From Patescibacteria group bacterium (GTDB taxonomy: Bacteria; Patescibacteriota; Minisyncoccia; Phycocordibacterales; UBA9973), in NCBI GenBank assembly GCA_030916965.1, contig JAUPVQ010000005.1:1-50581 (forward strand): a stretch of DNA of 50,581 bases. Direction: 5' to 3'. Below the pieces are notes generated by a model, which did not search any database, was not told where the DNA came from, and saw nothing but the letters and a program-made list of their open reading frames with translations. A program made the translations under genes and the position numbers. Positions 1,338-29,805 of the stretch are shown piece by piece. Each line of letters starts with the position of its first letter. The stretch's first letter is position 1.

Positions 1338-2180
1338 TTATTTTATGGTGAATTTACTGGAAACTGCGTAAAAACTATCCGTGAAAGGAGTATCTTTCGT
1401 AGTATTGGTAAATACATTATTTTTTATAGGAATAGGGGTAGAGTTACCCATTGGTATATGAGTACTATCCATTATAGGATAATAAACAGAAAATTGATAT
1501 TTATTAGTAAAAGATTTACTTTTTGGATTTAAAGCTACCCCGAACAACTTACGTGCTGGCAAGGTAAATGTTGCTGAACCAGTATTTTTTGTCTTAAGTC
1601 TATAGTTTACAACTGGGGTATTATTAATAGTACCACCATTTGAATCGACTGTTGATATACCTATTATAACTTCCGCATCACTAGGAATGTTTCTAGTATT
1701 CCATTTTACCTTTACGGTATCGCCCGGCTTAAAAGTATCCCTGCTCGTTGGAGAAATTACTTCAATCTCAGGCCCAGTACATTTTTTTGCACATGGAGTT
1801 ACCTTAAATTTTTTCGAGCTACTATTCTTCCCCGCCACACCATTTAAGGACGTAACTGAAATATCAAACTTATTGTTTAAAAATTGACTTGGTAAATCAT
1901 TTAGCAAATAAAAACTTGCTGAGCCAGTATTCTTTGCATACGCTTGAGCCCCAAACCCCGCACTTCCTGTGGTAGTATTTGTGTTAAGCCCTATTACAAC
2001 AGTCTCATCGGAAGGAACCCCAACACTACTCCATTTGACTGTTATTTTATCCCCAAGCCTAATCGTCTTGCTATCCATTGGGGAAAGGATTGTAATACTA
2101 GGAACTGGGTCCGCGTTTACTTTTTGTGCCCCTAAACCAAAAACCAATATAAAAGACAGAAGAGTGAAAAGTTTTTTCAT
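1338..2180 (-). CDS. secreted Ser/Thr-rich protein with two repeated Ig-like modules
   Basis: signal peptide; two copies of I.(I/V).SP....G..(I/V).VKW....P.D..V.IG...KNTGSA.F. Confidence 0.7.
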   Translation of the reverse strand: MKKLFTLLSFILVFGLGAQKVNADPVPSITILSPMDSKTIRLGDKITVKWSSVGVPSDETVVIGLNTNTTTGSAGFGAQAYAKNTGSASFYLLNDLPSQFLNNKFDISVTSLNGVAGKNSSSKKFKVTPCAKKCTGPEIEVISPTSRDTFKPGDTVKVKWNTRNIPSDAEVIIGISTVDSNGGTINNTPVVNYRLKTKNTGSATFTLPARKLFGVALNPKSKSFTNKYQFSVYYPIMDSTHIPMGNSTPIPIKNNVFTNTTKDTPFTDSFYAVSSKFTIK

Positions 2181-2247
2181 AATTATTCTACTTTATTAAT
2201 ATGAATATATTGTACCATTTTAAATTTAAAAGGCTAAAAAAATTTTC

Positions 2248-3762
2248 TTATTTTTTTAAAACACAATCTGGTAAATGTTCTAGGACGTCTATTGCATGAG
2301 ATGCATCACTTACGCTATCTACTTTACCAAATCTTATTTTCATATATTCAACATTTTCAATCATTCTTTTTATAGCACTTTGAACAATTTTTTTCGTATT
2401 AGGATCTAGTTCAAAATCATTTGGCAATTCAGTAAATGGAAGTAACTCGTGTGATAGATCATGAATCAAGTCCATAATTTCATTCTTTTTTTCTGGAATT
2501 TTTGTTTCCATAAGTCTTTTTTCAAGCATTTGTGTAGCTAAAGCCAAATGTTCATTTAATTTAATAGAATCCTTTGAATACAAATCATACATCGTCAAGG
2601 CATGTAAAGTATGTGCTCCCTCGCATGCAGTATTGTGTGTTTTTAGGGTCTCAGCTTGTTTTTCCATTTGCTTCAAAGTAAATTTTTCTTCTCTTGATGT
2701 AGTTGTATCAAATGTGAAGTCAAGCCTTTTTTGGTTTATATTATTTAATTCTTCCAAAGTAACAGGATTACCAACATTACTTCCCATAGTAAAATTTGTT
2801 TTAATTTCCCTTTTTTCAAGCTCTAGTAAAGTTGAAGTAATCCATTCAACTTCGTTTGGATTTAAATATGAGCCAAATCTAGATATTACTAAGTTATTTG
2901 GATTTTTAGCATCGCATTCATAGTGTGCTGGATTACTAATATCATTTATTATTTTATTTACCAATTCTTCACCTTCGCCACCTTCTTTTATAAATTGATC
3001 ATATGCTCCTGAGCGCAATAATGCGTAAGCTGTGCTTCCTAGGTGATATTCTCTTGTTTCTTTGCGTGTATGTTTAATATATTCTTTGTATTTTTTTTCT
3101 TCTTTTATTAATTTATCACCTTCTACCCAATTACGGTATATTCTCAGATAATCTTCAAACCCACCTTTAGCCATAAAAGATCCCTCTTTTTCCAATGAGT
3201 CGTAATCTGATTTTATTTTTTCAATGGCTTTTGCTTTTTGTTCATCATTGTACAAATGTAAATTTTTGTCTGCAAGAAATCCTTCAAAAGACATTTTGGG
3301 TGATTCCTCATAATAAATAGAATCCCCTGTTTTACCCATTAGTTCTAAAAAATCTTTTGTGTTAAATTTTGGATTATCTCCTAATGCAAGTATTTCATGA
3401 TCATGGGAGTAAATTTTCTTATATTTTTCGTATCTATCATTGTAATGTTTTTCTATATCTTTAGGAATTTGCTTTATTACATCATCTCTTAGTGTATTTA
3501 TTGTTTTTTCAATACGCTCTTTACTTATAAAAGTTTCAAATTCTTTTGTTTTTTCTTCTACTTTTTTATCATTAAAATGGCCCATAGTATCAGGACTAAT
3601 TTCTTTAGGTTTAATTGCTTCTGTATGAATAGCAGGGGGATTTAAGTCTTGATTAGAAATTTGTTTATTGTCACCCGTCTTACTTGGGATAGATCCAATC
3701 ACGAGAGCTCCGGCTATCTCTAAACCTTTTTTTAAATTTTTCTTGAAAAAATTATTGTCCAT
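2248..3762 (-). CDS. hypothetical protein
   Basis: 504-aa ORF directly downstream of tatD; K/E-rich, no family recognised. Confidence 0.75.
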   Translation of the reverse strand: MDNNFFKKNLKKGLEIAGALVIGSIPSKTGDNKQISNQDLNPPAIHTEAIKPKEISPDTMGHFNDKKVEEKTKEFETFISKERIEKTINTLRDDVIKQIPKDIEKHYNDRYEKYKKIYSHDHEILALGDNPKFNTKDFLELMGKTGDSIYYEESPKMSFEGFLADKNLHLYNDEQKAKAIEKIKSDYDSLEKEGSFMAKGGFEDYLRIYRNWVEGDKLIKEEKKYKEYIKHTRKETREYHLGSTAYALLRSGAYDQFIKEGGEGEELVNKIINDISNPAHYECDAKNPNNLVISRFGSYLNPNEVEWITSTLLELEKREIKTNFTMGSNVGNPVTLEELNNINQKRLDFTFDTTTSREEKFTLKQMEKQAETLKTHNTACEGAHTLHALTMYDLYSKDSIKLNEHLALATQMLEKRLMETKIPEKKNEIMDLIHDLSHELLPFTELPNDFELDPNTKKIVQSAIKRMIENVEYMKIRFGKVDSVSDASHAIDVLEHLPDCVLKK

Positions 3763-25047: not shown

Positions 25048-26298
25048 TTATACAAAACTTTCTGGTATTGGGAATTTGGATGCTAGGGCTTTTATTTTTT
25101 GTTTTATTTCTTCTTTCTTCTCAGTGTTATCTTTATTCTTCAGAGTTTCAAGCAATAATTCTGCAACTTGTGCACAATCTGCTTCTTTGAATCCACGAGT
25201 AGTGATGGCTGGTGTACCGAATCGGATTCCAGATGGGTCCAGAGGTTTCCTAGTGTCACCTGCGATTGAATTCATATTGAGTGTAATACCCACTTCATCA
25301 AGCACTGCTTGCGACTCTTTACCAGTCACTCCTAGTGAGCCGAAAACATCGGCAAGGATAAGATGGTTGTCTGTCCCCCCTCCAATCATGCGTACATTAT
25401 TGTCTTTGAAAACTTTCTCCATTGCTTTGGCGTTACGCAAGACTTGTTGTGCGTACTCTTGATAAGCCGGTGTCATTGCCTCGCCAAATGCCACAGCCTT
25501 GGCTGCTATAGTATGCATGTGTGGGCCACCTTGAATTCCTGGAAAAATTGCTTTGTCTATCTTCTTTGCGATCTCTTCACTCTCACGAGTTAGTATTATT
25601 CCTCCACGTGGACCACGAAGTGTCTTGTGTGTTGTCGATGTAATTATATCGAAGCCATCATCAAATGGGTTACGAAGTGCCTTTGCAGCGATCAATCCTG
25701 CAATGTGTGCCATGTCGGCCATTGTGATTGCGCCCACCTCTTTTGCAATATCAACAAACTTTTTGTAATCAAGAGTTCGTGGATATGCAGAGAATCCTGC
25801 AATAATTAATTTTGGCTTTTCTACTTTTGCGACACGTAGCATATCATCGTAATCAATCTCGCCAGTCTCGGGATCCTTCATCTTGTAAGTTACGAATTTA
25901 TAAATCTTGGCAGGAAGTGTCATTGGGTGGCCATGAGTAAGGTGCCCACCATGGGATAAGTCCATGCCCATCACTGTATCGCCTGGTTCAAGTAGTGCCG
26001 CATATACAGCCAAGTTGGCAGGTGCACCAGAGTGAGGCTGAACATTGGCAAATTTACAATTAAATAGTTTGCACACACGCTCAATAGCAAGTCGCTCTAC
26101 GACATCGGTATATTCTTGTCCGCCATAATAGCGACGGCCTGGATAACCTTCGGAATATTTGTTGGTCATTATAGAACCGTTGGCTTCCAAAACAGCCTTG
26201 GAAACATAGTTCTCTGAAGGAATAAGCTCCAAACCATCTCTTTGGCGTATAGCCTCTCCAGCAATTGCATCAAAAACCTCTTTGTCGTGTGTACTCAT
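25048..26298 (-). CDS. glyA: serine hydroxymethyltransferase
   Basis: LELIPSENY, NKYSEGYPGRRYYGG, GGHLTHG, TTHKTLRGPRGG; start trimmed to MSTHD. Confidence 0.97.
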   Translation of the reverse strand: MSTHDKEVFDAIAGEAIRQRDGLELIPSENYVSKAVLEANGSIMTNKYSEGYPGRRYYGGQEYTDVVERLAIERVCKLFNCKFANVQPHSGAPANLAVYAALLEPGDTVMGMDLSHGGHLTHGHPMTLPAKIYKFVTYKMKDPETGEIDYDDMLRVAKVEKPKLIIAGFSAYPRTLDYKKFVDIAKEVGAITMADMAHIAGLIAAKALRNPFDDGFDIITSTTHKTLRGPRGGIILTRESEEIAKKIDKAIFPGIQGGPHMHTIAAKAVAFGEAMTPAYQEYAQQVLRNAKAMEKVFKDNNVRMIGGGTDNHLILADVFGSLGVTGKESQAVLDEVGITLNMNSIAGDTRKPLDPSGIRFGTPAITTRGFKEADCAQVAELLLETLKNKDNTEKKEEIKQKIKALASKFPIPESFV

Positions 26299-26372
26299 AA
26301 TTGTAAAAGTTAGATAATAATACCCGTATTTTAGCATGTTGAATAGAAAATTAAAAACTGTATAATTGGCTT

Positions 26373-27314
26373 ATGGATAAATATCATGTAGACAATATAT
26401 ATCTCGATCTTATCGAGCGAATCAAGAATGAAGGGGTCAAAAAGACAGACCGCACAGGCACAGGCACTATATCATTGCTAGGTCACCAAATGCGTTTCGA
26501 TCTTTCAAAAGGCTTCCCTCTCCTTACTACAAAAAAGGTTCCTATTAAATCTATTATTCATGAGCTCATCTGGTTTGTGCGTGGTGATACCAACCTAAAA
26601 TATCTTGCAGACAACAATGTCCACATCTGGGATGAATGGCCATACAAAGCATATCTCAAAAGGAACAACATTCCAGTACCAGCGACTGGAAGTGACGAAT
26701 GGAATACTGGCATAAAAGAATTCGTAGAGAAAATAAAAACAGATGAATCTTTTGCAAAAGATTATGGCAACCTCGGTCCAATCTATGGATACCAATGGCG
26801 CAACTGGCCTACCCCAAATGGCGAGCATGTAGATCAACTGAAAAAGGTTATCGAGGATATCAAGAACACTCCTGACTCTCGCAGGCTAATAGTCTCTGCA
26901 TGGAATGTCGCTGATATCGATGAGATGGCAAAAGCAGGTCTTCCTCCTTGCCACTGTTTCTTTCAATTTTATGTTGCCGATGGCAAACTTTCTTGCCAAT
27001 TGTATCAACGAAGTTGCGACACATTCCTCGGAGTGCCATTCAATATTGCTTCATACTCAATCTTGCTCATGATGATCGCTCAAGTTACTGGACTTAAACT
27101 TGGAGAGTTTGTCTGGACTGGGGGTGATGTGCATTTGTATTCTAATCATTTAGAACAAGCAGATATACAACTTGCTCGTCGCAACGACATCCGACCAATG
27201 CCAACCATGAAAATAAATTCTGAAATAAAAAATATTGAAGATTTTACAATCAACGATTTCGAACTTGTAGATTACAATCCCCACGATTCAATTAAAGCTC
27301 CTATAGCTGTATAA
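26373..27314 (+). CDS. thyA: thymidylate synthase
   Basis: [34 protein letters not shown]. Confidence 0.98.
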
Positions 27315-27336
27315 ATGAATATTATTTAATACTCTA

Positions 27337-27366
27337 AATTCCCCTATAACCCATAGGGGAGTTTTG
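27337..27366 (+). terminator. thyA terminator
   Basis: TCCCCTAT-aaccc-ATAGGGGA then GTTTT. Confidence 0.7.
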
Positions 27367-27394
27367 TTTTCCACAGTTTTATCCTAAACCTTGC

Positions 27395-27423
27395 TTGACT
27401 TAAAAATACTTCCATACTAGTAT
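27395..27423 (+). promoter_or_regulatory. sigma70 promoter overlapped by the operator
   Basis: TTGACT-17bp-TAGTAT, 6 nt before the leader ATG at 27430. Confidence 0.7.
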
Positions 27424-27442
27424 ACTAGTATGGAAGTATTTT
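27403..27442. promoter_or_regulatory. TrpR-type operator (40-bp perfect palindrome)
   Basis: AAAATACTTCCATACTAGTATACTAGTATGGAAGTATTTT; core ACTAGTatACTAGT matches the E. coli trp operator core ACTAGTTAACTAGT; ACT/AGT repeat every 8 bp. Confidence 0.88.
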
Positions 27443-27513
27443 ATATTAGAACTAAATACACAAAGAACACTACCAACCAAATCTGGTGGAACTCATTTAC
27501 GCATATGCGTTGA
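27430..27513 (+). CDS. trpL: tryptophan attenuator leader peptide MEVFYIRTKYTKNTTNQIWWNSFTHMR
   Basis: 27-aa uORF with tandem TGG TGG at 27484-27489, directly before attenuator segment 1. Confidence 0.85.
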   Translation: MEVFYIRTKYTKNTTNQIWWNSFTHMR

Positions 27514-27585
27514 TGAGTGCCTTCCCCTACCCCTCTATTAAATAAGGAAATTACTCACCAGCGCAGAAATGCGCTTAATTTTTTT
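27491..27585 (+). promoter_or_regulatory. Trp transcription attenuator
   Basis: 1:2 hairpin 27491-27518; 2:3 antiterminator 27506-27518/27553-27565; 3:4 terminator AGCGCA-GAAA-TGCGCT 27560-27575 plus T-tract. Confidence 0.85.
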
Positions 27586-27629
27586 GTCCTTTCAAAATTA
27601 AATAAAACAAATATATTAATTATACAAAC

Positions 27630-28313
27630 ATGAAAACAATCATCTCCAACACAGAAAAAAAATGTATCGGATTTAAAAGATCTGATAATCGTTTCATCCA
27701 AATGGTAACAAATGAAAGTATTTTGGAATCAGATTTTACATTAAATGATTCAAAAAATTCTTTTTTTAGAGCCTATGATTACATCACCAAAGTAAAAGAT
27801 GGTGACGGTAAGCAATCCTACTGCCCTTTTGTCCGCTTGATTGAAAAACAAAATGGGTATTACCTGAAGTGCTATCACAAAACACTCAAAGAAGATTACC
27901 TAACAAACACTTCAACGGAACTTTTGCAAAAATTTATTGCACTATCTCCCTGTAAAACTTCGATTGATCAAAAGGTGGATACAACTACTGTGGTTGCAAT
28001 ACTTACGAATAGTAAAGCAACAACAGAAGAATCTCTTTCTCTTATGATCCAGGTCCGTGACAAAGTTAGACTCTCGTTCTTAGAGCAAGGCTTAATGATT
28101 GCGTACATGCACCCAATCCATGAGCTTGGTGGTGTAGGGAAACGTGGAAGTACCCTTCCAGAAACTCCAATGTATGTTGCAGAAATCCCTCTACTTATGG
28201 TTCGCAGAATGCACAAAGAAGACTACGTTTTCATGAATACTGAAGCTGAAAAGGAAGCATATTCAAAATACTTTTTGTCTAATACCCCTTTAAAGTGTCC
28301 ATTTCACAAATAA
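27630..28313 (+). CDS. Trp-regulated protein of unknown function, DUF6875-like
   Basis: G..SYCPFV, GLMIAYMHP and PLLMVRRM..ED motifs recall DUF6875; C-terminal CPFH; contains no Trp residues. Confidence 0.6.
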   Translation: MKTIISNTEKKCIGFKRSDNRFIQMVTNESILESDFTLNDSKNSFFRAYDYITKVKDGDGKQSYCPFVRLIEKQNGYYLKCYHKTLKEDYLTNTSTELLQKFIALSPCKTSIDQKVDTTTVVAILTNSKATTEESLSLMIQVRDKVRLSFLEQGLMIAYMHPIHELGGVGKRGSTLPETPMYVAEIPLLMVRRMHKEDYVFMNTEAEKEAYSKYFLSNTPLKCPFHK

Positions 28314-28334
28314 ATTATTTGCTCTTTTAAAAAC

Positions 28335-28370
28335 AAATCCCCCGCAAACTAAACTTTCGGGGGATTTTTT
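28335..28370 (+). terminator. intrinsic terminator
   Basis: AAATCCCCCG...CGGGGGATTT plus T-tract. Confidence 0.8.
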
Positions 28371-28396
28371 ATACTTCTATACTAGTAGGCAAGTAT
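28371..28396. promoter_or_regulatory. second, weaker TrpR-type operator upstream of trpR
   Basis: ATACTTCTATACTAGTAGGCAAGTAT, an imperfect version of the 27403 palindrome that is one 8-bp unit shorter. Confidence 0.72.
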
Positions 28397-28430
28397 TTTA
28401 ATAATTTAATTTTTGGGGTATAATACTACT

Positions 28431-28715
28431 ATGATTGACCCACGGAAAAACAAAGATGAGCTTATAAAGGCTATTATGATTGCGAGCTCTGATAAGGCTG
28501 TGCTTGAGGCATTCCTAGAAGATTTGCTTACTCCAAGAGAAAGAAATGCACTACCCAAGCGCTGGGAGATTGTCCGCCGGTTGTACAAAGGGGAGAAGCA
28601 GTGGGATGTAGCAGAGGATTTGAAGCTAGGTGTTGCAACTGTAACCCGAGGCTCCAGAGAGCTAAAAGACAAGAATGGGGGCTTTATAAAAGTATTGAAA
28701 AAATTGTATAAATAA
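28431..28715 (+). CDS. trpR: Trp repressor
   Basis: LLTPRER.AL..R..IV..L..G..Q..VA..L..GVATVTRGS..LK closely matches E. coli TrpR; start at the ATG 6 nt after TATAAT (28419-28424). Confidence 0.9.
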   Translation: MIDPRKNKDELIKAIMIASSDKAVLEAFLEDLLTPRERNALPKRWEIVRRLYKGEKQWDVAEDLKLGVATVTRGSRELKDKNGGFIKVLKKLYK

Positions 28716-28716
28716 T

Positions 28717-29244
28717 ATGATACTATCTTTAATTGCAGGTATTGGAAAGAATAATGAGCTTGGACTTGGCAATGCACTTCTCTGGGATTTGCCACGCGAC
28801 ATGAAGCACTTCCGCGAAACTACAAGTGGCCACCCAGTGATCATGGGTCGCAAGACTTTTGAATCTATTGGCAAGCCCCTTCCAAAGCGAAGAAATATTG
28901 TGATTACTCGAGATAATTCTTATATGAAAGATGGTATTGAAGTAGCAAATTCGCTCGAAGAAGCACTTCGTTTAGCGAGCCTTGATCAGGGCAAGAACTT
29001 TGAAGAAAATCAGGAAGAAGTTGAAGCTTTTATAATCGGTGGTGCAGAAATTTACAAGCAAGCAATTGCAAAAGCTGGAAGACTCTACATTACGCATGTT
29101 GATAGCGCCTTTGAGGCAGATGCATTCTTCCCTGCTATAGATCAAGCTTTTTGGAAAGAAACAAAACGTGAGCACTACGATGCAGACGAACAAAATAATT
29201 TACCCATGGATTTCGTAGTATACGAACGCACTATTGCAAAATAA
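28717..29244 (+). CDS. folA: dihydrofolate reductase
   Basis: LW.LPRDMKHFR..T.GHPVIMGRKTFESIGKPLPKRRNIVIT, IIGGAEIY, DAFFP. Confidence 0.97.
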   Translation: MILSLIAGIGKNNELGLGNALLWDLPRDMKHFRETTSGHPVIMGRKTFESIGKPLPKRRNIVITRDNSYMKDGIEVANSLEEALRLASLDQGKNFEENQEEVEAFIIGGAEIYKQAIAKAGRLYITHVDSAFEADAFFPAIDQAFWKETKREHYDADEQNNLPMDFVVYERTIAK

Positions 29245-29268
29245 TTAATAAAAAGGCAAAATAGCATT

Positions 29269-29805
29269 ATGATTTTATCTGACAAAAAAATTCTAGAATG
29301 TGTCGAAAAAGGCGAGATCGTAATCACGCCTTTTGATGAGAGTAATATGGGTGGCAATTCATATGATGTCCACTTGAGCAAACACCTTGCCCAATATATA
29401 GATGAGTGTATTGATGCTAAAAAACACAACGAGATTAAACATTTCGAAATACCAGAAGAAGGCTTCGTATTACAACCGGGCCAACTCTATCTCGGCTCCA
29501 CTCTTGAATACACAGAGACGCACAAGCATGTACCATTCCTCGAGGGTAAATCAAGTACCGGGCGCCTAGGTGTAGATATACATGCCACTGCCGGTAAAGG
29601 AGATGTAGGATTCTGCGGATATTGGACTCTTGAAATATCGACAAGCAAGCCTGTACGCATATATGCGGGGATGCCAATCGGCCAAGTGATATACTATGTA
29701 GTAGATGGGGAGGTAGAAAGAAATTATGGTAAAAAAACAAGTGCTAAATATCACAACCAAGATCACCTACCAAAAGAATCAATGATGTGGAAAAATAACT
29801 TTTAA
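29269..29805 (+). CDS. dcd: dCTP deaminase
   Basis: MILSD, SYDVHL, EGKSSTGRLG, TAG.GD.GF.G.WTLE. Confidence 0.95.
   Translation: MILSDKKILECVEKGEIVITPFDESNMGGNSYDVHLSKHLAQYIDECIDAKKHNEIKHFEIPEEGFVLQPGQLYLGSTLEYTETHKHVPFLEGKSSTGRLGVDIHATAGKGDVGFCGYWTLEISTSKPVRIYAGMPIGQVIYYVVDGEVERNYGKKTSAKYHNQDHLPKESMMWKNNF

What the first reader, a model, noticed from the sequence alone, without database searches (positions are those of the whole stretch)
27395..28715. Self-contained tryptophan-sensing module (TrpR operator, WW attenuator, trpR) controlling an orphan enzyme-like gene rather than trp biosynthesis genes
Seen in sequence: a promoter covered by a 40-bp perfect palindrome; a leaderless 27-aa peptide with tandem Trp codons; mutually exclusive 1:2, 2:3 and 3:4 hairpins; one 227-aa gene; a terminator; a second operator; and an E. 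coli-like trpR. Established: TrpR repression plus trpL attenuation is the enterobacterial trpEDCBA control logic, and CPR bacteria generally lack amino-acid biosynthesis. Inference: this organism switches on a single non-trp gene when tryptophan is scarce, which suggests an undescribed Trp salvage, repair or scavenging function. No trp or Trp-transporter genes are in the window.
Basis: partly seen in the sequence, partly recalled or inferred. Interest (0 to 1): 0.92.

Follow-up and report, generated by a model that had tools for sequence, protein, structure and literature searches.

The report
Tryptophan-starvation switch driving a Trp-oxidase-family gene
A tiny parasitic-type bacterium that cannot make tryptophan carries a complete E. 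coli-style tryptophan sensor (repressor, operator and a Trp-Trp leader peptide) that switches on a gene of a newly described family of haem enzymes acting on tryptophan.

Summary
A 40-bp perfect palindrome (27403-27442) covers a TTGACT-17-TAGTAT promoter. A 27-codon ORF starts inside it, and its UGG-UGG abuts mutually exclusive 1:2, 2:3 and 3:4 hairpins. A 227-aa gene, a terminator, a second operator and a TrpR-family gene follow. Related Candidatus Saccharibacteria genomes support it. Five homologous leaders keep the start column, the stop column and both folds, and four of them keep WW. A sixth, unalignable WW leader precedes a 42%-identical homologue. The tandem operator core occurs in 10 of 93 genus genomes, all TrpR-positive.

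The gene is not an orphan. It belongs to DUF6875, or "cytochrome P422", a family shown in a 2025 preprint to be haem-thiolate enzymes oxidising free L-Trp. All four DUF6875 genes found in Saccharibacteria sit behind an operator plus a WW leader. In relatives the same switch drives other cargo: trpS, a TrpD-like gene, racemase-family genes and unknowns.

The genome lacks trpB, TrpD, Mtr-type permease, ferrochelatase, ferredoxins and flavodoxin, so the enzyme's role under Trp starvation is open. This is a new variant of a known regulatory kind, and I found nothing in print on it for these bacteria.

The parts
27336..27364 (+). Terminator of the upstream thyA gene. It isolates the module as its own transcription unit.
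   Evidence: Terminator-like site, 12 pairs; thyA is PF00303.
27395..27423 (+). Promoter: -35 TTGACT (27395-27400), 17-nt spacer, -10 TAGTAT (27418-27423).
   Evidence: The same TTGACT-17-TAG(C/T)AT arrangement is invariant in 5 of 5 aligned leaders.
27403..27442 (.). Operator O1: 40-bp perfect palindrome, three ATACT half-sites per strand at 8-bp spacing. It covers the -10 hexamer, the inferred start site and the leader ATG.
   Evidence: It has the same NNACT-N3-NNACT/AGTNN-N3-AGTNN layout as the E. coli trp operator read.
27430..27513 (+). Leader peptide ORF of 27 codons, probably leaderless, with no SD. Tandem Trp codons at 27484-27489 and stop UGA at 27511-27513 inside segment 2.
   Evidence: Start column and stop column are identical in 5 of 5 relatives, and all indels are multiples of 3.
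27491..27518 (+). Hairpin 1:2 (anti-antiterminator).
   Evidence: Together with 3:4, 91.5% of cells are paired in 5 leaders, against 17-46% when slid.
27506..27565 (+). Antiterminator 2:3 (27506-27525 pairs with 27546-27565). It sequesters the 5' arm of the terminator.
   Evidence: 94.1% of cells are paired in 5 leaders, against 34-47% when slid.
27560..27585 (+). Attenuator terminator 3:4 (AGCGCA/TGCGCT) plus a run of 7 T.
27630..28313 (+). 227-aa DUF6875/cytochrome P422-family gene. It has Cys65-Pro66 and R192-x-M-x3-D198-x2-F201, and no Trp residue.
   Evidence: PF21780 E 1.8e-12, 48.1 bits, cut-off 24.5. Motif positions come, compared.
28332..28370 (+). Terminator after the P422-family gene.
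   Evidence: Inverted repeat I4, 16 nt, 88% complementary, ending in a T-run.
28371..28396 (.). Operator O2 (ATACT-N3-ATACT/AGTAG-N3-AGTAT) just upstream of the trpR -10.
   Evidence: It is absent from the homologous spot in G504 and G007.
28419..28424 (+). trpR -10 TATAAT, 6 nt before the ATG (leaderless trpR mRNA inferred).
   Evidence: Sequence. The same ...GGGTTATAAT-N7-ATG is present in G504 and G007.
28431..28715 (+). trpR, 94 aa.
   Evidence: PF01371 E 8.6e-18. It aligns to E. coli TrpR chains, E 1.3e-6. The counterparts of E. coli T44, R54, T81, T83, R84 and G85 are invariant in 13 aligned orthologues.

Best explanation
The stretch 27395-28715 is a working copy of the enterobacterial two-tier tryptophan sensor, placed in a Candidatus Saccharibacteria genome that has no trp biosynthesis genes. 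It controls a DUF6875/cytochrome P422-family gene.

Tier 1 (inferred from sequence and co-occurrence). TrpR with bound L-Trp sits as tandem dimers on the 40-bp palindrome. The palindrome overlaps the -10 hexamer and the start site, so initiation is blocked when Trp is plentiful.

Tier 2 (inferred from structure, logic and conservation). Transcripts begin at or next to the AUG of a 27-codon leader ORF.
- When charged tRNA-Trp is scarce, the ribosome pauses at UGG-UGG (27484-27489). Its footprint covers the 5' arm of hairpin 1:2. Segment 2 then pairs with segment 3, the terminator cannot form, and RNA polymerase reads into the gene.
- When Trp is sufficient, the ribosome runs to the UGA inside segment 2. 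Hairpin 3:4 plus the U-run then terminates transcription.

trpR itself has its own -10, a leaderless start and a second operator, which implies autorepression in this genome.

The product keeps the family's Cys-Pro haem-ligand dipeptide and the complete indole 'clamp' motif. I therefore take it to bind Trp or a close Trp-like indole compound at a thiolate-ligated haem. It is made only under Trp starvation. My favoured, unproven reading is that it converts a Trp-related compound from the host or environment, either regenerating usable Trp or making a Trp-derived signal. I do not think it simply burns scarce Trp.
For: Anatomy and energetics.

Likeness to the operator of E. coli K-12. Both have -35 TTGAC(A/T), a 17-nt spacer, ACTAGT-N2-ACTAGT over the -10, and a downstream leader with UGG-UGG.

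TrpR. PF01371 scores over its cut-off. The recognition helix GVATVTRGS compares with E. coli GIATITRGS. The counterparts of T44, R54, R84 and G85 are kept and are invariant in 13 orthologues.

Co-occurrence in the genus.
- A window-type TrpR is in 16 of 93 genomes.
- The core TACTAGNATACTAGTA is in 10 of 93. All 10 are TrpR-positive, and each has a site within about 2.2 kb of trpR. The count is 0 of 77 TrpR-negative genomes, and the backwards control gives 0. Fisher p is 1e-9, but kin are not independent.
- Four more TrpR-positive genomes carry 4-5 copies of the variant TGTACTAGTACA.

Leader conservation.
- Five homologous leaders (G000, G504, G013, G007, G492) share the start column, the stop column (TGA in four, TAA in one) and in-frame indels.
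- In all five, W occurs only at the regulatory position: WW in four and a single W in G007.
- Both alternative folds are kept.
- An unalignable leader, MVYPKTTTTLWWSARTYSSASVC, with its own operator and terminator, precedes the 42%-identical homologue in G507.

Link to the cargo. All DUF6875-family genes found in Saccharibacteria sit behind an operator plus a WW leader. They are G000, G504 and G492 (3 of 93 genus genomes), plus G507. The G492 protein is only 17% identical to the window's.

Other Trp-linked cargo. trpS sits directly behind an operator in G507 (TIGR00233 291.6 bits, over its cut-off). A TrpD-like gene sits behind an operator in G016.

Family function. I read the P422 preprint's abstract and sections 6-8. 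ZigI was seen in passages of PMC13307353.

Auxotrophy. No trpB, Trp_Tyr_perm or Glycos_transf_3 was found in the 95.7%-complete genome.

Initiation without SD. SD-like 4-mers are not enriched upstream of 408 long ORFs (11% against 12% at random positions).
Against: - There are no expression or binding data.
- Covariation is almost nil: 1 pair with changes on both sides in the 2:3 helix and none in 1:2 or 3:4. The five leaders are close kin, so the fold rests on conservation plus one independent leader.
- In G504 the minimum-energy fold with a ribosome at WW still keeps the stronger terminator.
- The promoter match alone is not above chance.
- The 8-mer TACTAGTA is not enriched genome-wide: 17 found against about 24 expected.
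- Plain identity of the operators to the E. coli 26-mer (18 and 17 of 26) is also reached by an unrelated site at 1018-1043.
- One operator-type palindrome (contig C6 11617-11650) lies between the 3' ends of the tmRNA gene and purB, and looks like a two-way terminator.
- O2 is missing in front of trpR in G504 and G007, so autoregulation is not conserved.
- TrpR scores below the NCBIfam equivalog cut-off. E. coli R69, K72 and S88 are W, A and E here.
- The cargo is a paradox: known P422 enzymes consume L-Trp. The genome also shows no ferrochelatase, Fer2, Flavodoxin_1 or Fer4_7.
- Three of the four published motifs deviate. HBR keeps only C-P. SBR2 is R143-x3-R147 instead of (Q/H)x3K. SBR3 is M-x-A-x-M instead of MxGxF.
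Confidence: 0.8

Rival explanations
1. The 227-aa protein is not a redox enzyme in this organism. It has no haem synthesis and no recognisable electron donor, so it acts as a Trp- or haem-binding protein (a buffer, chaperone or sensor) made during Trp starvation. Alternatively it uses peroxide instead of a redox partner.
For: - No ferrochelatase, Fer2, Flavodoxin_1 or Fer4_7 was found in the genome.
- The HBR, SBR2 and SBR3 motifs deviate.
- Elsewhere a canonical DUF6875 domain is fused to a GGDEF output domain (P0125), which suits a sensor role.
Against: - Cys65 is at least 90% conserved and Pro66 is invariant across 66 aligned family members. The clamp residues R192, D198 and F201 are nearly invariant. 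That is what an active site would show.
- The genome is 95.7% complete in 42 contigs, so absences are not proof.
- Only four donor or haem families were searched.
Confidence: 0.25
2. The TrpR-family protein senses a ligand other than L-Trp, for example the substrate or product of the cargo enzyme such as a hydroxy-Trp or another indole. Tier 1 would then be a substrate or product switch, and only the leader would report Trp.
For: - It scores below the TrpR equivalog cut-off.
- The counterpart of E. coli S88 is Glu, and R69 and K72 are not kept.
- The cargo differs from genome to genome.
Against: - The counterparts of T44, R54, R84 and G85 are invariant in 13 orthologues.
- The operator has the E. 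coli layout.
- In G507 the repressor gene follows trpS behind an operator.
- Operator and WW leader are combined at the same promoters, which argues for one signal.
Confidence: 0.12
3. The palindromes are RNA hairpins, terminators or a repeated palindromic element. Their position next to trpR is a coincidence.
For: - The copy on contig C6 lies between two convergent genes, flanked by A- and T-runs.
- O1 is followed by TTTTATATT.
- Arms of 12 nt are identical between O1 and the C6 copy.
Against: - The tandem core is found only in TrpR-positive genomes (10 of 16 against 0 of 77) and always near trpR.
- It sits between -35 and the start at TTGACT-17-TAGNAT promoters in at least 9 loci.
- O1 lies downstream of a separate thyA terminator.
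- O1 differs from the C6 copy by exactly one 8-bp unit, which is the half-site spacing.
Confidence: 0.04
4. The short ORF is not translated. The hairpins would respond to something other than a stalled ribosome (a protein, a tRNA or a small molecule), or would terminate constitutively.
For: - There is no SD and no mapped 5' end.
- No Rfam family matched, so nothing is known about the RNA.
Against: - Start and stop columns are fixed.
- The stop is kept through a TGA-to-TAA change.
- All indels are in frame.
- W occurs only at the regulatory site in 5 of 5 leaders.
- WW recurs in the unrelated G507 leader and in a second leader type in G450, G456, G002 and G009.
- The genome as a whole does not use SD.
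Confidence: 0.05

Closest known systems
E. coli trpEDCBA control region (TrpR operator plus trpL attenuator)
   Same: From E. coli K-12 sequence read:
- -35 TTGACA, a 17-nt spacer, and the operator ACTAGT-N2-ACTAGT over the -10.
- A flanking NNACT/AGTNN layout at 8-bp spacing.
- A leader ORF with UGG-UGG, then terminator and antiterminator hairpins.
- trpR autoregulated (passages of PMC5343134).
   Different: - The cargo is a Trp-oxidase-family gene, not trp biosynthesis genes, and the organism has none of those.
- The operator has three half-sites per strand instead of two, and A instead of G at the outer position.
- The leader mRNA is probably leaderless, with its AUG inside the operator.
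- Seven codons, not three, lie between WW and the stop.
- trpR lies immediately downstream.
Cytochrome P422 / DUF6875 family (Mc170, Ba855, Ss890, ThnD, AcmE, ZigI)
   Same: - The Pfam PF21780 hit is over its cut-off.
- Cys-Pro is at the haem-ligand position.
- SBR1 Rx(M/L)x3Dx2F is complete.
- Basic residues sit at the two carboxylate-anchor positions.
   Different: - It belongs to a divergent subfamily: 80 representatives at E <= 1e-10, then a gap to canonical members at about 1e-5.
- HBR, SBR2 and SBR3 are not as published.
- The host phylum is not among those listed in the preprint.
- It is not in a natural-product or kynurenine cluster but behind a Trp-starvation switch.
- No redox partner or haem synthesis gene was found.
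Chlamydia trachomatis trpRBA (TrpR in an auxotroph controlling salvage genes)
   Same: A TrpR-family repressor in a host-dependent bacterium without full Trp synthesis, sitting in one locus with the genes it controls. I saw only the abstracts of PMC7755916 and 10.1101/2020.05.03.075317 in the listing.
   Different: There the cargo is trpB and trpA (salvage from indole), and the second tier is an iron-dependent repressor. Here there is no trpB, and the second tier is a ribosome-mediated WW attenuator.
Mycobacterial polycysteine leaderless short ORFs as attenuators
   Same: A leaderless short ORF enriched in codons for one amino acid, acting as an attenuator of downstream genes (10.1101/834739; title and start of the abstract only).
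   Different: Those sense Cys and control Cys-related operons. I did not read that paper's mechanism. Here the ORF senses Trp and is combined with a DNA-binding repressor whose operator contains the ORF's start codon.

Membership tests
TrpR family (PF01371) tryptophan repressor | Sequence membership | tested here: met
   PF01371 E 8.6e-18, 64.6 bits, cut-off 27. It is nearer to TrpR (46.3 bits) than to YerC/YecD (26.2 bits) in NCBIfam, but below both curated cut-offs.
TrpR family (PF01371) tryptophan repressor | Corepressor-pocket residues of E. coli TrpR. That T44, R54, R84, G85 and S88 form the pocket is recalled, not checked here. | tested here: inconclusive
   The counterparts of T44, R54, R84 and G85 are present and invariant in 13 orthologues. 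S88 is Glu here. Ligand binding was not tested.
TrpR family (PF01371) tryptophan repressor | CTAG-centred palindromic operator overlapping a promoter | tested here: met
   It occurs only in TrpR-positive genomes.
TrpR family (PF01371) tryptophan repressor | Trp-dependent DNA binding | not testable with these tools
   Needs a band-shift or footprint with and without L-Trp.
Ribosome-mediated transcription attenuator (trpL type) | Short translated leader ORF with regulatory codons for the sensed amino acid | tested here: met
   WW at 27484-27489. The ORF frame, start and stop are conserved in 5 of 5 leaders. WW occurs in 1.1% of short ORFs by chance. Translation itself is not shown.
Ribosome-mediated transcription attenuator (trpL type) | Mutually exclusive antiterminator and terminator, with the regulatory codons placed so that a stalled ribosome frees segment 2 and the stop codon so that a finished ribosome covers it | tested here: met
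   Pairing is kept in relatives. In G504 the stalled-ribosome MFE keeps the terminator.
Ribosome-mediated transcription attenuator (trpL type) | Compensatory base changes supporting the helices | tested here: inconclusive
   Only 1 pair has changes on both sides. Shuffles reach the observed scores in 74-288 of 500.
Ribosome-mediated transcription attenuator (trpL type) | Read-through raised by Trp starvation | not testable with these tools
   Needs a reporter or in-vitro coupled assay.
Cytochrome P422 / DUF6875 | Sequence membership | tested here: met
   PF21780 E 1.8e-12, residues 51-220 on model positions 11-172 of 178. All 12 of 12 close homologues carry PF21780.
Cytochrome P422 / DUF6875 | Haem-binding motif RxGxVCP with the Cys ligand | tested here: inconclusive
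   The window has G-K-Q-S-Y-C65-P66, so only C-P is kept. C65 is at least 90% conserved and P66 is invariant in 66 sequences.
Cytochrome P422 / DUF6875 | SBR1 Rx(M/L)x3Dx2F indole clamp | tested here: met
   R192-R-M194-H-K-E-D198-Y-V-F201. R192, D198 and F201 are nearly invariant.
Cytochrome P422 / DUF6875 | SBR2 Dx2(Q/H)x3K carboxylate anchor | tested here: not met
   R143-x3-R147 is invariant in the 13-sequence subfamily, with no conserved Asp. Register with the canonical motif was set by eye from the hhalign alignment with the canonical G492 protein, which reads Q-x3-Q there. Basic character is kept at the Lys position.
Cytochrome P422 / DUF6875 | SBR3 MxGxF | tested here: not met
   M156-I-A158-Y-M160.
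Cytochrome P422 / DUF6875 | Fold, haem binding, 422-nm CO spectrum and Trp oxidation | not testable with these tools
No relative is in the PDB by sequence.

The most novel reading that the evidence does not exclude
The operator-plus-WW-leader unit is a portable tryptophan-starvation switch. These host-dependent Saccharibacteria use it to deploy interchangeable accessory genes.

The P422-family cargo does not feed the cell directly. It makes a modified tryptophan, such as a hydroxy-Trp, that acts on the host, for example by mimicking Trp shortage or blocking the host's Trp sensing. The host would then make or release more tryptophan.

An equally new alternative is that the enzyme strips a modification from a Trp derivative to regenerate Trp.

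Either way it would be the first amino-acid-starvation-triggered effector or salvage system described in the candidate phyla radiation.
Probability: 0.2. Interest if true: 0.9.

Novelty: new variant of a known kind. Interest (0 to 1): 0.78.

Why it matters
The TrpR and trpL logic is the textbook example of feedback control of a biosynthetic pathway. Here the same logic survives in an organism that has lost the pathway, and it serves as a pure starvation alarm. That gives a direct handle on a long-standing question: how ultra-small, host-dependent bacteria sense and respond to shortage of nutrients they cannot make.

It also gives the newly described P422 haem enzymes their first physiological context outside natural-product clusters, and a puzzling one, since they are induced when their known substrate is scarce.

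The regulon also points to a set of unannotated genes as candidates for Trp acquisition. These are proteins of 255, 278-293 and 325 aa, racemase-family and TrpD-like genes, and a PQ-loop-like membrane protein.

Every claim is cheaply testable in E. coli with synthetic DNA.

Tried and rejected
- Rfam scan of 27250-28800 at E <= 10: only sub-threshold chance hits, all below their gathering scores, and no leader or riboswitch family.
- The PDB sequence search with the 66-sequence profile found nothing at E <= 1.
Contexts of the metagenomic homologues P0001, P0003-P0006 and P0008-P0012 therefore could not be seen.
- The metagenome scan gave only one 33-residue match (L021), which I did not examine.
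- The second Atlas call failed.
- The listing of cluster members gave no names or taxa for 10 homologues.
- No RNA holder was listed for the stretch, so nothing can be said on expression.
- In the laid contigs of runs X7 and X8 there is no cover of 27657-28370. I do not count this as absence of the gene there.
- The '8 bases left out at 27414' in X5, X6 and X7 probably comes from the 32-bp palindrome of contig C6, not from a variant of O1. The X5 contig's loose end reads as the C6 flank.
- Homologues of the operator-preceded 188-aa membrane protein in five other genomes have no operator upstream.
- A genome-wide scan for other WW short ORFs followed by a hairpin and T-run gave two more. The one on C7 lies inside a 332-aa ORF. 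The one on C42 was not looked at.
- I first drew the 2:3 helix one column out of register (39% paired). It is corrected.
- Plain identity to the E. coli operator 26-mer does not discriminate.
- Supplements of the P422 preprint (lists of 707 sequences, taxa and neighbourhood figures) are closed. They could show whether members from these bacteria or trpR neighbours were already noted. The main text has no occurrence of repressor, TrpR, Saccharibacteria, Patescibacteria or attenuat-.
- Searches for prior description found nothing: 'Saccharibacteria' + 'TrpR' gave 0 papers and 'Patescibacteria' + 'trp repressor' gave 0. In the search for Saccharibacteria, tryptophan, attenuation and leader peptide (3 of 4 terms), none of the 20 papers listed was relevant.


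Full report
**What is in the sequence**

The region lies between thyA (26373-27314, PF00303) and folA (28717-29244, PF00186). glyA lies upstream on the other strand and a dCTP deaminase gene lies downstream. thyA ends in its own terminator (27336-27364), so what follows is a separate transcription unit.

- A TTGACT-17-TAGTAT promoter (27395-27423) is covered by a 40-bp perfect palindrome (27403-27442).
- The palindrome is built of ATACT three times on each strand at 8-bp spacing.
- Its core, ACTAGT-N2-ACTAGT, occurs once in the 730-kb genome.
- A 27-codon ORF starts at 27430, six bases after the -10 hexamer, so the mRNA is probably leaderless. This is inferred from spacing only.
- The ORF's only two Trp codons, 27484-27489, abut a hairpin.

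**How the leader folds**

The leader folds far better than shuffles: -39.5 against -23.95 +/- 3.27 kcal/mol, z -4.76. The folds are those of a classical attenuator.
- 1:2 is 27491-27518, at -18.0 kcal/mol.
- 2:3 is 27506-27525 with 27546-27565, at -18.1.
- 3:4 is 27560-27575 plus seven T, at -9.7.

Masking a ribosome at WW gives 2:3, which takes the terminator's 5' arm. Masking one at the UGA, which lies in segment 2, gives the terminator.

Downstream come:
- the 227-aa gene (27630-28313);
- a terminator (28332-28370);
- a second palindrome with the same 26-bp layout (28371-28396);
- a TATAAT six bases before the trpR ATG at 28431;
- trpR, which runs to 28715.

**Is it more than chance?**

Single elements are not.
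- Promoter-like matches are as common in shuffles.
- TACTAGTA is not enriched genome-wide.
- 18 of 26 identity to the E. coli operator also turns up at an unrelated place.

The combination and its conservation are. WW occurs in 1.1% of short ORFs (27 of 2505).

The 26-bp layout NTACT-N4-TACTAGTA-N4-AGTAN, with one mismatch allowed, occurs at five positions in the genome. Three are in this module, one is on contig C6 and one is on C29.

**Who is the organism?**

The genome has 730 kb, 37% GC and 42 contigs, and is 95.7% complete. The two public contigs with the closest homologues of the 227-aa gene are titled uncultured Candidatus Saccharibacteria bacterium. One of them is also a genome of the window's own genus (G504).

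Searches of the window's genome found no trpB, no Trp/Tyr permease family and no TrpD family member. It has one TrpRS, on contig C14. SD-like words are not enriched before long ORFs (11% against 12%), so starts without SD are normal here.

**The repressor and its operator**

The 94-aa protein matches PF01371 (E 8.6e-18) and aligns to E. coli TrpR chains. The recognition helix reads GVATVTRGS against E. coli GIATITRGS.

The counterparts of E. coli T44, R54, R84 and G85 are present and invariant in 13 orthologues. Their role as corepressor-pocket residues is recalled, not checked here. For that alignment I aligned 13 of 16 loci: my motif filter missed three ORFs, the truncated G491 copy was left out, and G507 was added. 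R69, K72 and S88 are not kept.

I read the E. coli K-12 trp control region for comparison.
- It has TTGACA, 17 nt, and the operator GAACTAGTTAACTAGTACGCAAGTTC over the -10.
- Its trpL has UGG-UGG.
- The layout is the same. The window's O1 simply has one more 8-bp unit.

Across the 93 genomes of the genus:
- a window-type TrpR is found in 16;
- the tandem core TACTAGNATACTAGTA is found in 10, all of them TrpR-positive and each with a site within about 2.2 kb of trpR;
- none of the 77 TrpR-negative genomes has it, and the backwards control gives none;
- four further TrpR-positive genomes carry 4-5 copies of a single-unit variant, TGTACTAGTACA. That variant also occurs once or twice in three TrpR-negative genomes.

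So 14 of 16 TrpR-positive genomes have recognisable operators. Kin are not independent, so the Fisher p of 1e-9 overstates the case.

**The leader in relatives**

Homologous leaders lie behind the same promoter and operator in G504, G013, G007 and G492.

All five, with the window, start at alignment column 36 and stop at column 120. The stop is TGA in four and TAA in one. They are 24-28 codons long with in-frame indels only. W appears only at the regulatory position: WW in four and a single W in G007.

The terminated fold is paired in 91.5% of cells and the antiterminated fold in 94.1%. When the partner columns are slid, the figures are 17-47%. Compensatory change is almost absent, so this is conservation and not covariation.

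Independent support comes from G507, whose P422 homologue is only 42% identical. There a different operator (TACTATTGTACTAGTAC) precedes a 23-codon ORF, MVYPKTTTTLWWSARTYSSASVC. A different set of hairpins and a terminator follow, with the same logic.

A second leader type occurs just downstream of trpR in G450, G456, G002 and G009...NTWWGAS...LIC and ...YTFWWSD...LIC. In G450 and G002 it is preceded by TGTACTAGTACA and followed by a hairpin and T-run (sequence seen).

**The cargo**

The 227-aa protein is a DUF6875 member.

A bioRxiv preprint of December 2025 renames the family cytochrome P422. I read the abstract and sections 6, 7 and 8. It reports the following.
- Family members are thiolate-ligated b-haem proteins.
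- Of 84 purified members, 41 N1-hydroxylate free L-Trp, 18 C7-hydroxylate it and 15 C6-hydroxylate it. ThnD and ThdM form a C-S bond on a Trp-derived thiol.
- A 2.5-A structure of Mc170 with Trp bound was solved.
- Four motifs are defined.

A 2026 JACS paper uses the assignment for ZigI (passages only).

How the window protein compares:
- It keeps the Cys-Pro of the haem motif. Pro66 is invariant and Cys65 is at least 90% conserved in 66 sequences that span the subfamily and canonical members.
- It keeps the whole SBR1 clamp, R192-x-M-x3-D198-x2-F201.
- SBR2 is R-x3-R, and SBR3 is M-x-A-x-M.

It belongs to a distinct subfamily: 143 representatives at E <= 1e-3 and 80 at <= 1e-10.

The gene is rare:
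- with the 227-aa protein as query, own genome only among 41;
- with the Pfam model, 1 of 401 genomes sampled across the phylum and 3 of 93 in the genus.

All three genus copies (G000, G504, G492), and the G507 copy, lie behind an operator plus a WW leader. The G492 protein is a canonical-type DUF6875 (E 1.1e-28) that is only 17% identical to the window's.

Two very different branches of a Trp-binding enzyme family therefore sit behind the same Trp sensor. I take this as the strongest single argument that both the sensor and the cargo are about tryptophan.

**The switch carries other cargo too**

At the same thyA-to-folA spot:
- G007 has operator, leader, a 293-aa unknown, an Asp/Glu-racemase-family gene, a small membrane ORF, trpR and folA.
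- G483 has a 34-bp palindrome, a 133-aa unknown, trpR and folA.

Elsewhere:
- G013 has operator, leader and a 325-aa unknown. It also has operator, a 255-aa unknown and trpR.
- G016 has operator, a TrpD-like gene (TIGR01245 143.5 bits, below its cut-off), BtpA and trpR.
- G466 and G447 have operator, an unknown of about 278 aa, a racemase-family gene and trpR.
- G448 has operator, a YbdK-like ligase, an EgtC-like amidotransferase and trpR.
- G507 has operator, trpS and trpR.

Contigs of two wastewater runs carry a leader that is nearly identical to the window's: 2 other letters and 1 gap over 27413-27637 in X7, and 1 other letter over 27420-27565 in X8. Each then continues into sequence unlike the window. 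This fits cargo exchange downstream of a fixed switch.

**What does the enzyme do under starvation?**

This is the open part. Known P422 enzymes use up L-Trp, O2 and electrons from a ferredoxin and its reductase.

This genome shows no ferrochelatase, Fer2, Flavodoxin_1 or Fer4_7. Haem would have to be acquired, and the electron source is unknown. Peroxide is a possibility.

The protein has no Trp residue. That suits a protein made when Trp is short, but it is weak evidence.

I favour action on a Trp-related compound, either regenerating Trp or making a signal. The racemase-family, TrpD-like, trpS and transporter-like genes in the same regulon all suit acquisition.

I rate a non-catalytic binding or sensor role at about one in four. 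A canonical DUF6875 domain fused to GGDEF, and another fused to an aminoacyl-tRNA editing domain, show the fold is used in other ways.

**Novelty**

The kind of control is textbook. Leaderless leader ORFs acting as attenuators are known from mycobacteria (10.1101/834739; title and start of the abstract only). TrpR regulons described so far cover Trp synthesis, uptake and catabolism in gammaproteobacteria, where the regulator is said to be concentrated (passages of PMC5343134).

I found nothing in print on TrpR or Trp attenuation in Saccharibacteria or Patescibacteria. The main text of the P422 preprint has nothing on such regulation.

**Verdict**

- The regulatory interpretation is supported.
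- 'Orphan' is corrected to P422 family.
- The function under starvation is unresolved.
- This is a new variant of a known kind, of high interest.

Noticed in passing
own genome contig C6 11617-11650 (L001 about 3118-3151), outside the window: A 32-bp perfect palindrome with the same arms as O1 minus one 8-bp unit. It lies between the 3' end of the tmRNA gene and the 3' end of purB, which are convergent, and is flanked by A- and T-runs. It could be an operator without a promoter, a two-way terminator, or both.
   Followed up: partly
own genome contig C29 18496-18521 (L002 2997-3022), outside the window: An operator-type palindrome, ATACTTGCATACTAGTAGGCAAGTAT, lies 10 nt before the ATG of a 188-aa multi-pass membrane protein. 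The protein has no Pfam family, and language-model features place it nearest clusters named PQ-loop repeat protein (score 0.96). It is a candidate TrpR-controlled transporter. Its paralogues in five other genomes have no operator. In G483 a like palindrome at the same spot, after the Cys-rich zinc-finger-like gene, precedes a DUF218 gene instead.
   Followed up: partly
whole own genome; window 27430 and 28431: SD-like 4-mers are no commoner before 408 long ORFs than at random positions (11% against 12%). The leader ORF and trpR both start 6 nt after a -10 hexamer. The organism seems to start translation largely without SD, and partly on leaderless mRNAs.
   Followed up: partly
L020 (G507) 1790-3053: A trpS-trpR operon. 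A GTACTAGTT operator word sits between a terminator and a TATAAT, directly before a bona fide tryptophan--tRNA ligase gene, and trpR starts 3 nt after the trpS stop.
   Followed up: partly
relatives: L082 (G016), L083 (G466), L084 (G447), L085 (G448), L015/L032 (G013), L033/L012 (G007), L057 (G483): TrpR is usually the last gene of a short operon behind its own operator. The cargo varies: TrpD-like plus BtpA; an unknown of about 278-293 aa plus an Asp/Glu-racemase-family gene; a YbdK-like ligase plus an EgtC-like amidotransferase; and unknowns of 255, 325 and 133 aa. A PLP-decarboxylase gene lies convergent to trpR in G016, G466 and G447.
   Followed up: partly
L019 3343-3683 (G504) and L058 about 1537 (G013): A second promoter with TACTAGTATACTAGTA drives a small ORF (102 aa in G504, 79 aa in G013, no family). 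It lies immediately upstream of the operator-plus-WW-leader unit, so two TrpR-controlled units stand in tandem.
   Followed up: no
L072-L075 (G450, G002, G456, G009): A second family of WW leader peptides (23-28 aa, ending in LIC) lies just downstream of trpR, behind TGTACTAGTACA operators. They precede unrelated genes of 139-289 aa.
   Followed up: partly
proteins P0125, P0148, P0061, P0128 (distant DUF6875 members): DUF6875 domains occur fused to a GGDEF domain, to an aminoacyl-tRNA editing (YbaK-type) domain, to GHMP-kinase/CYTH domains, and (weakly) to a CHAT domain. These architectures were not mentioned in the parts of the P422 preprint that I read.
   Followed up: no
window 25048-29805: glyA, thyA, folA and a dCTP deaminase gene form a thymidylate/folate cluster. 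The Trp module is inserted between thyA and folA. In G007, G483, G492 and G504 the same gap holds the variant cargo, so it looks like a hot spot for exchange.
   Followed up: partly
L012 1120-1200 (G007): Downstream of the racemase-family gene lies a degenerate second copy of attenuator segments 3 and 4 (...TTATTCACCAGCGTGTATGCGTTAAATTT...), which may be a remnant of an earlier arrangement.
   Followed up: no
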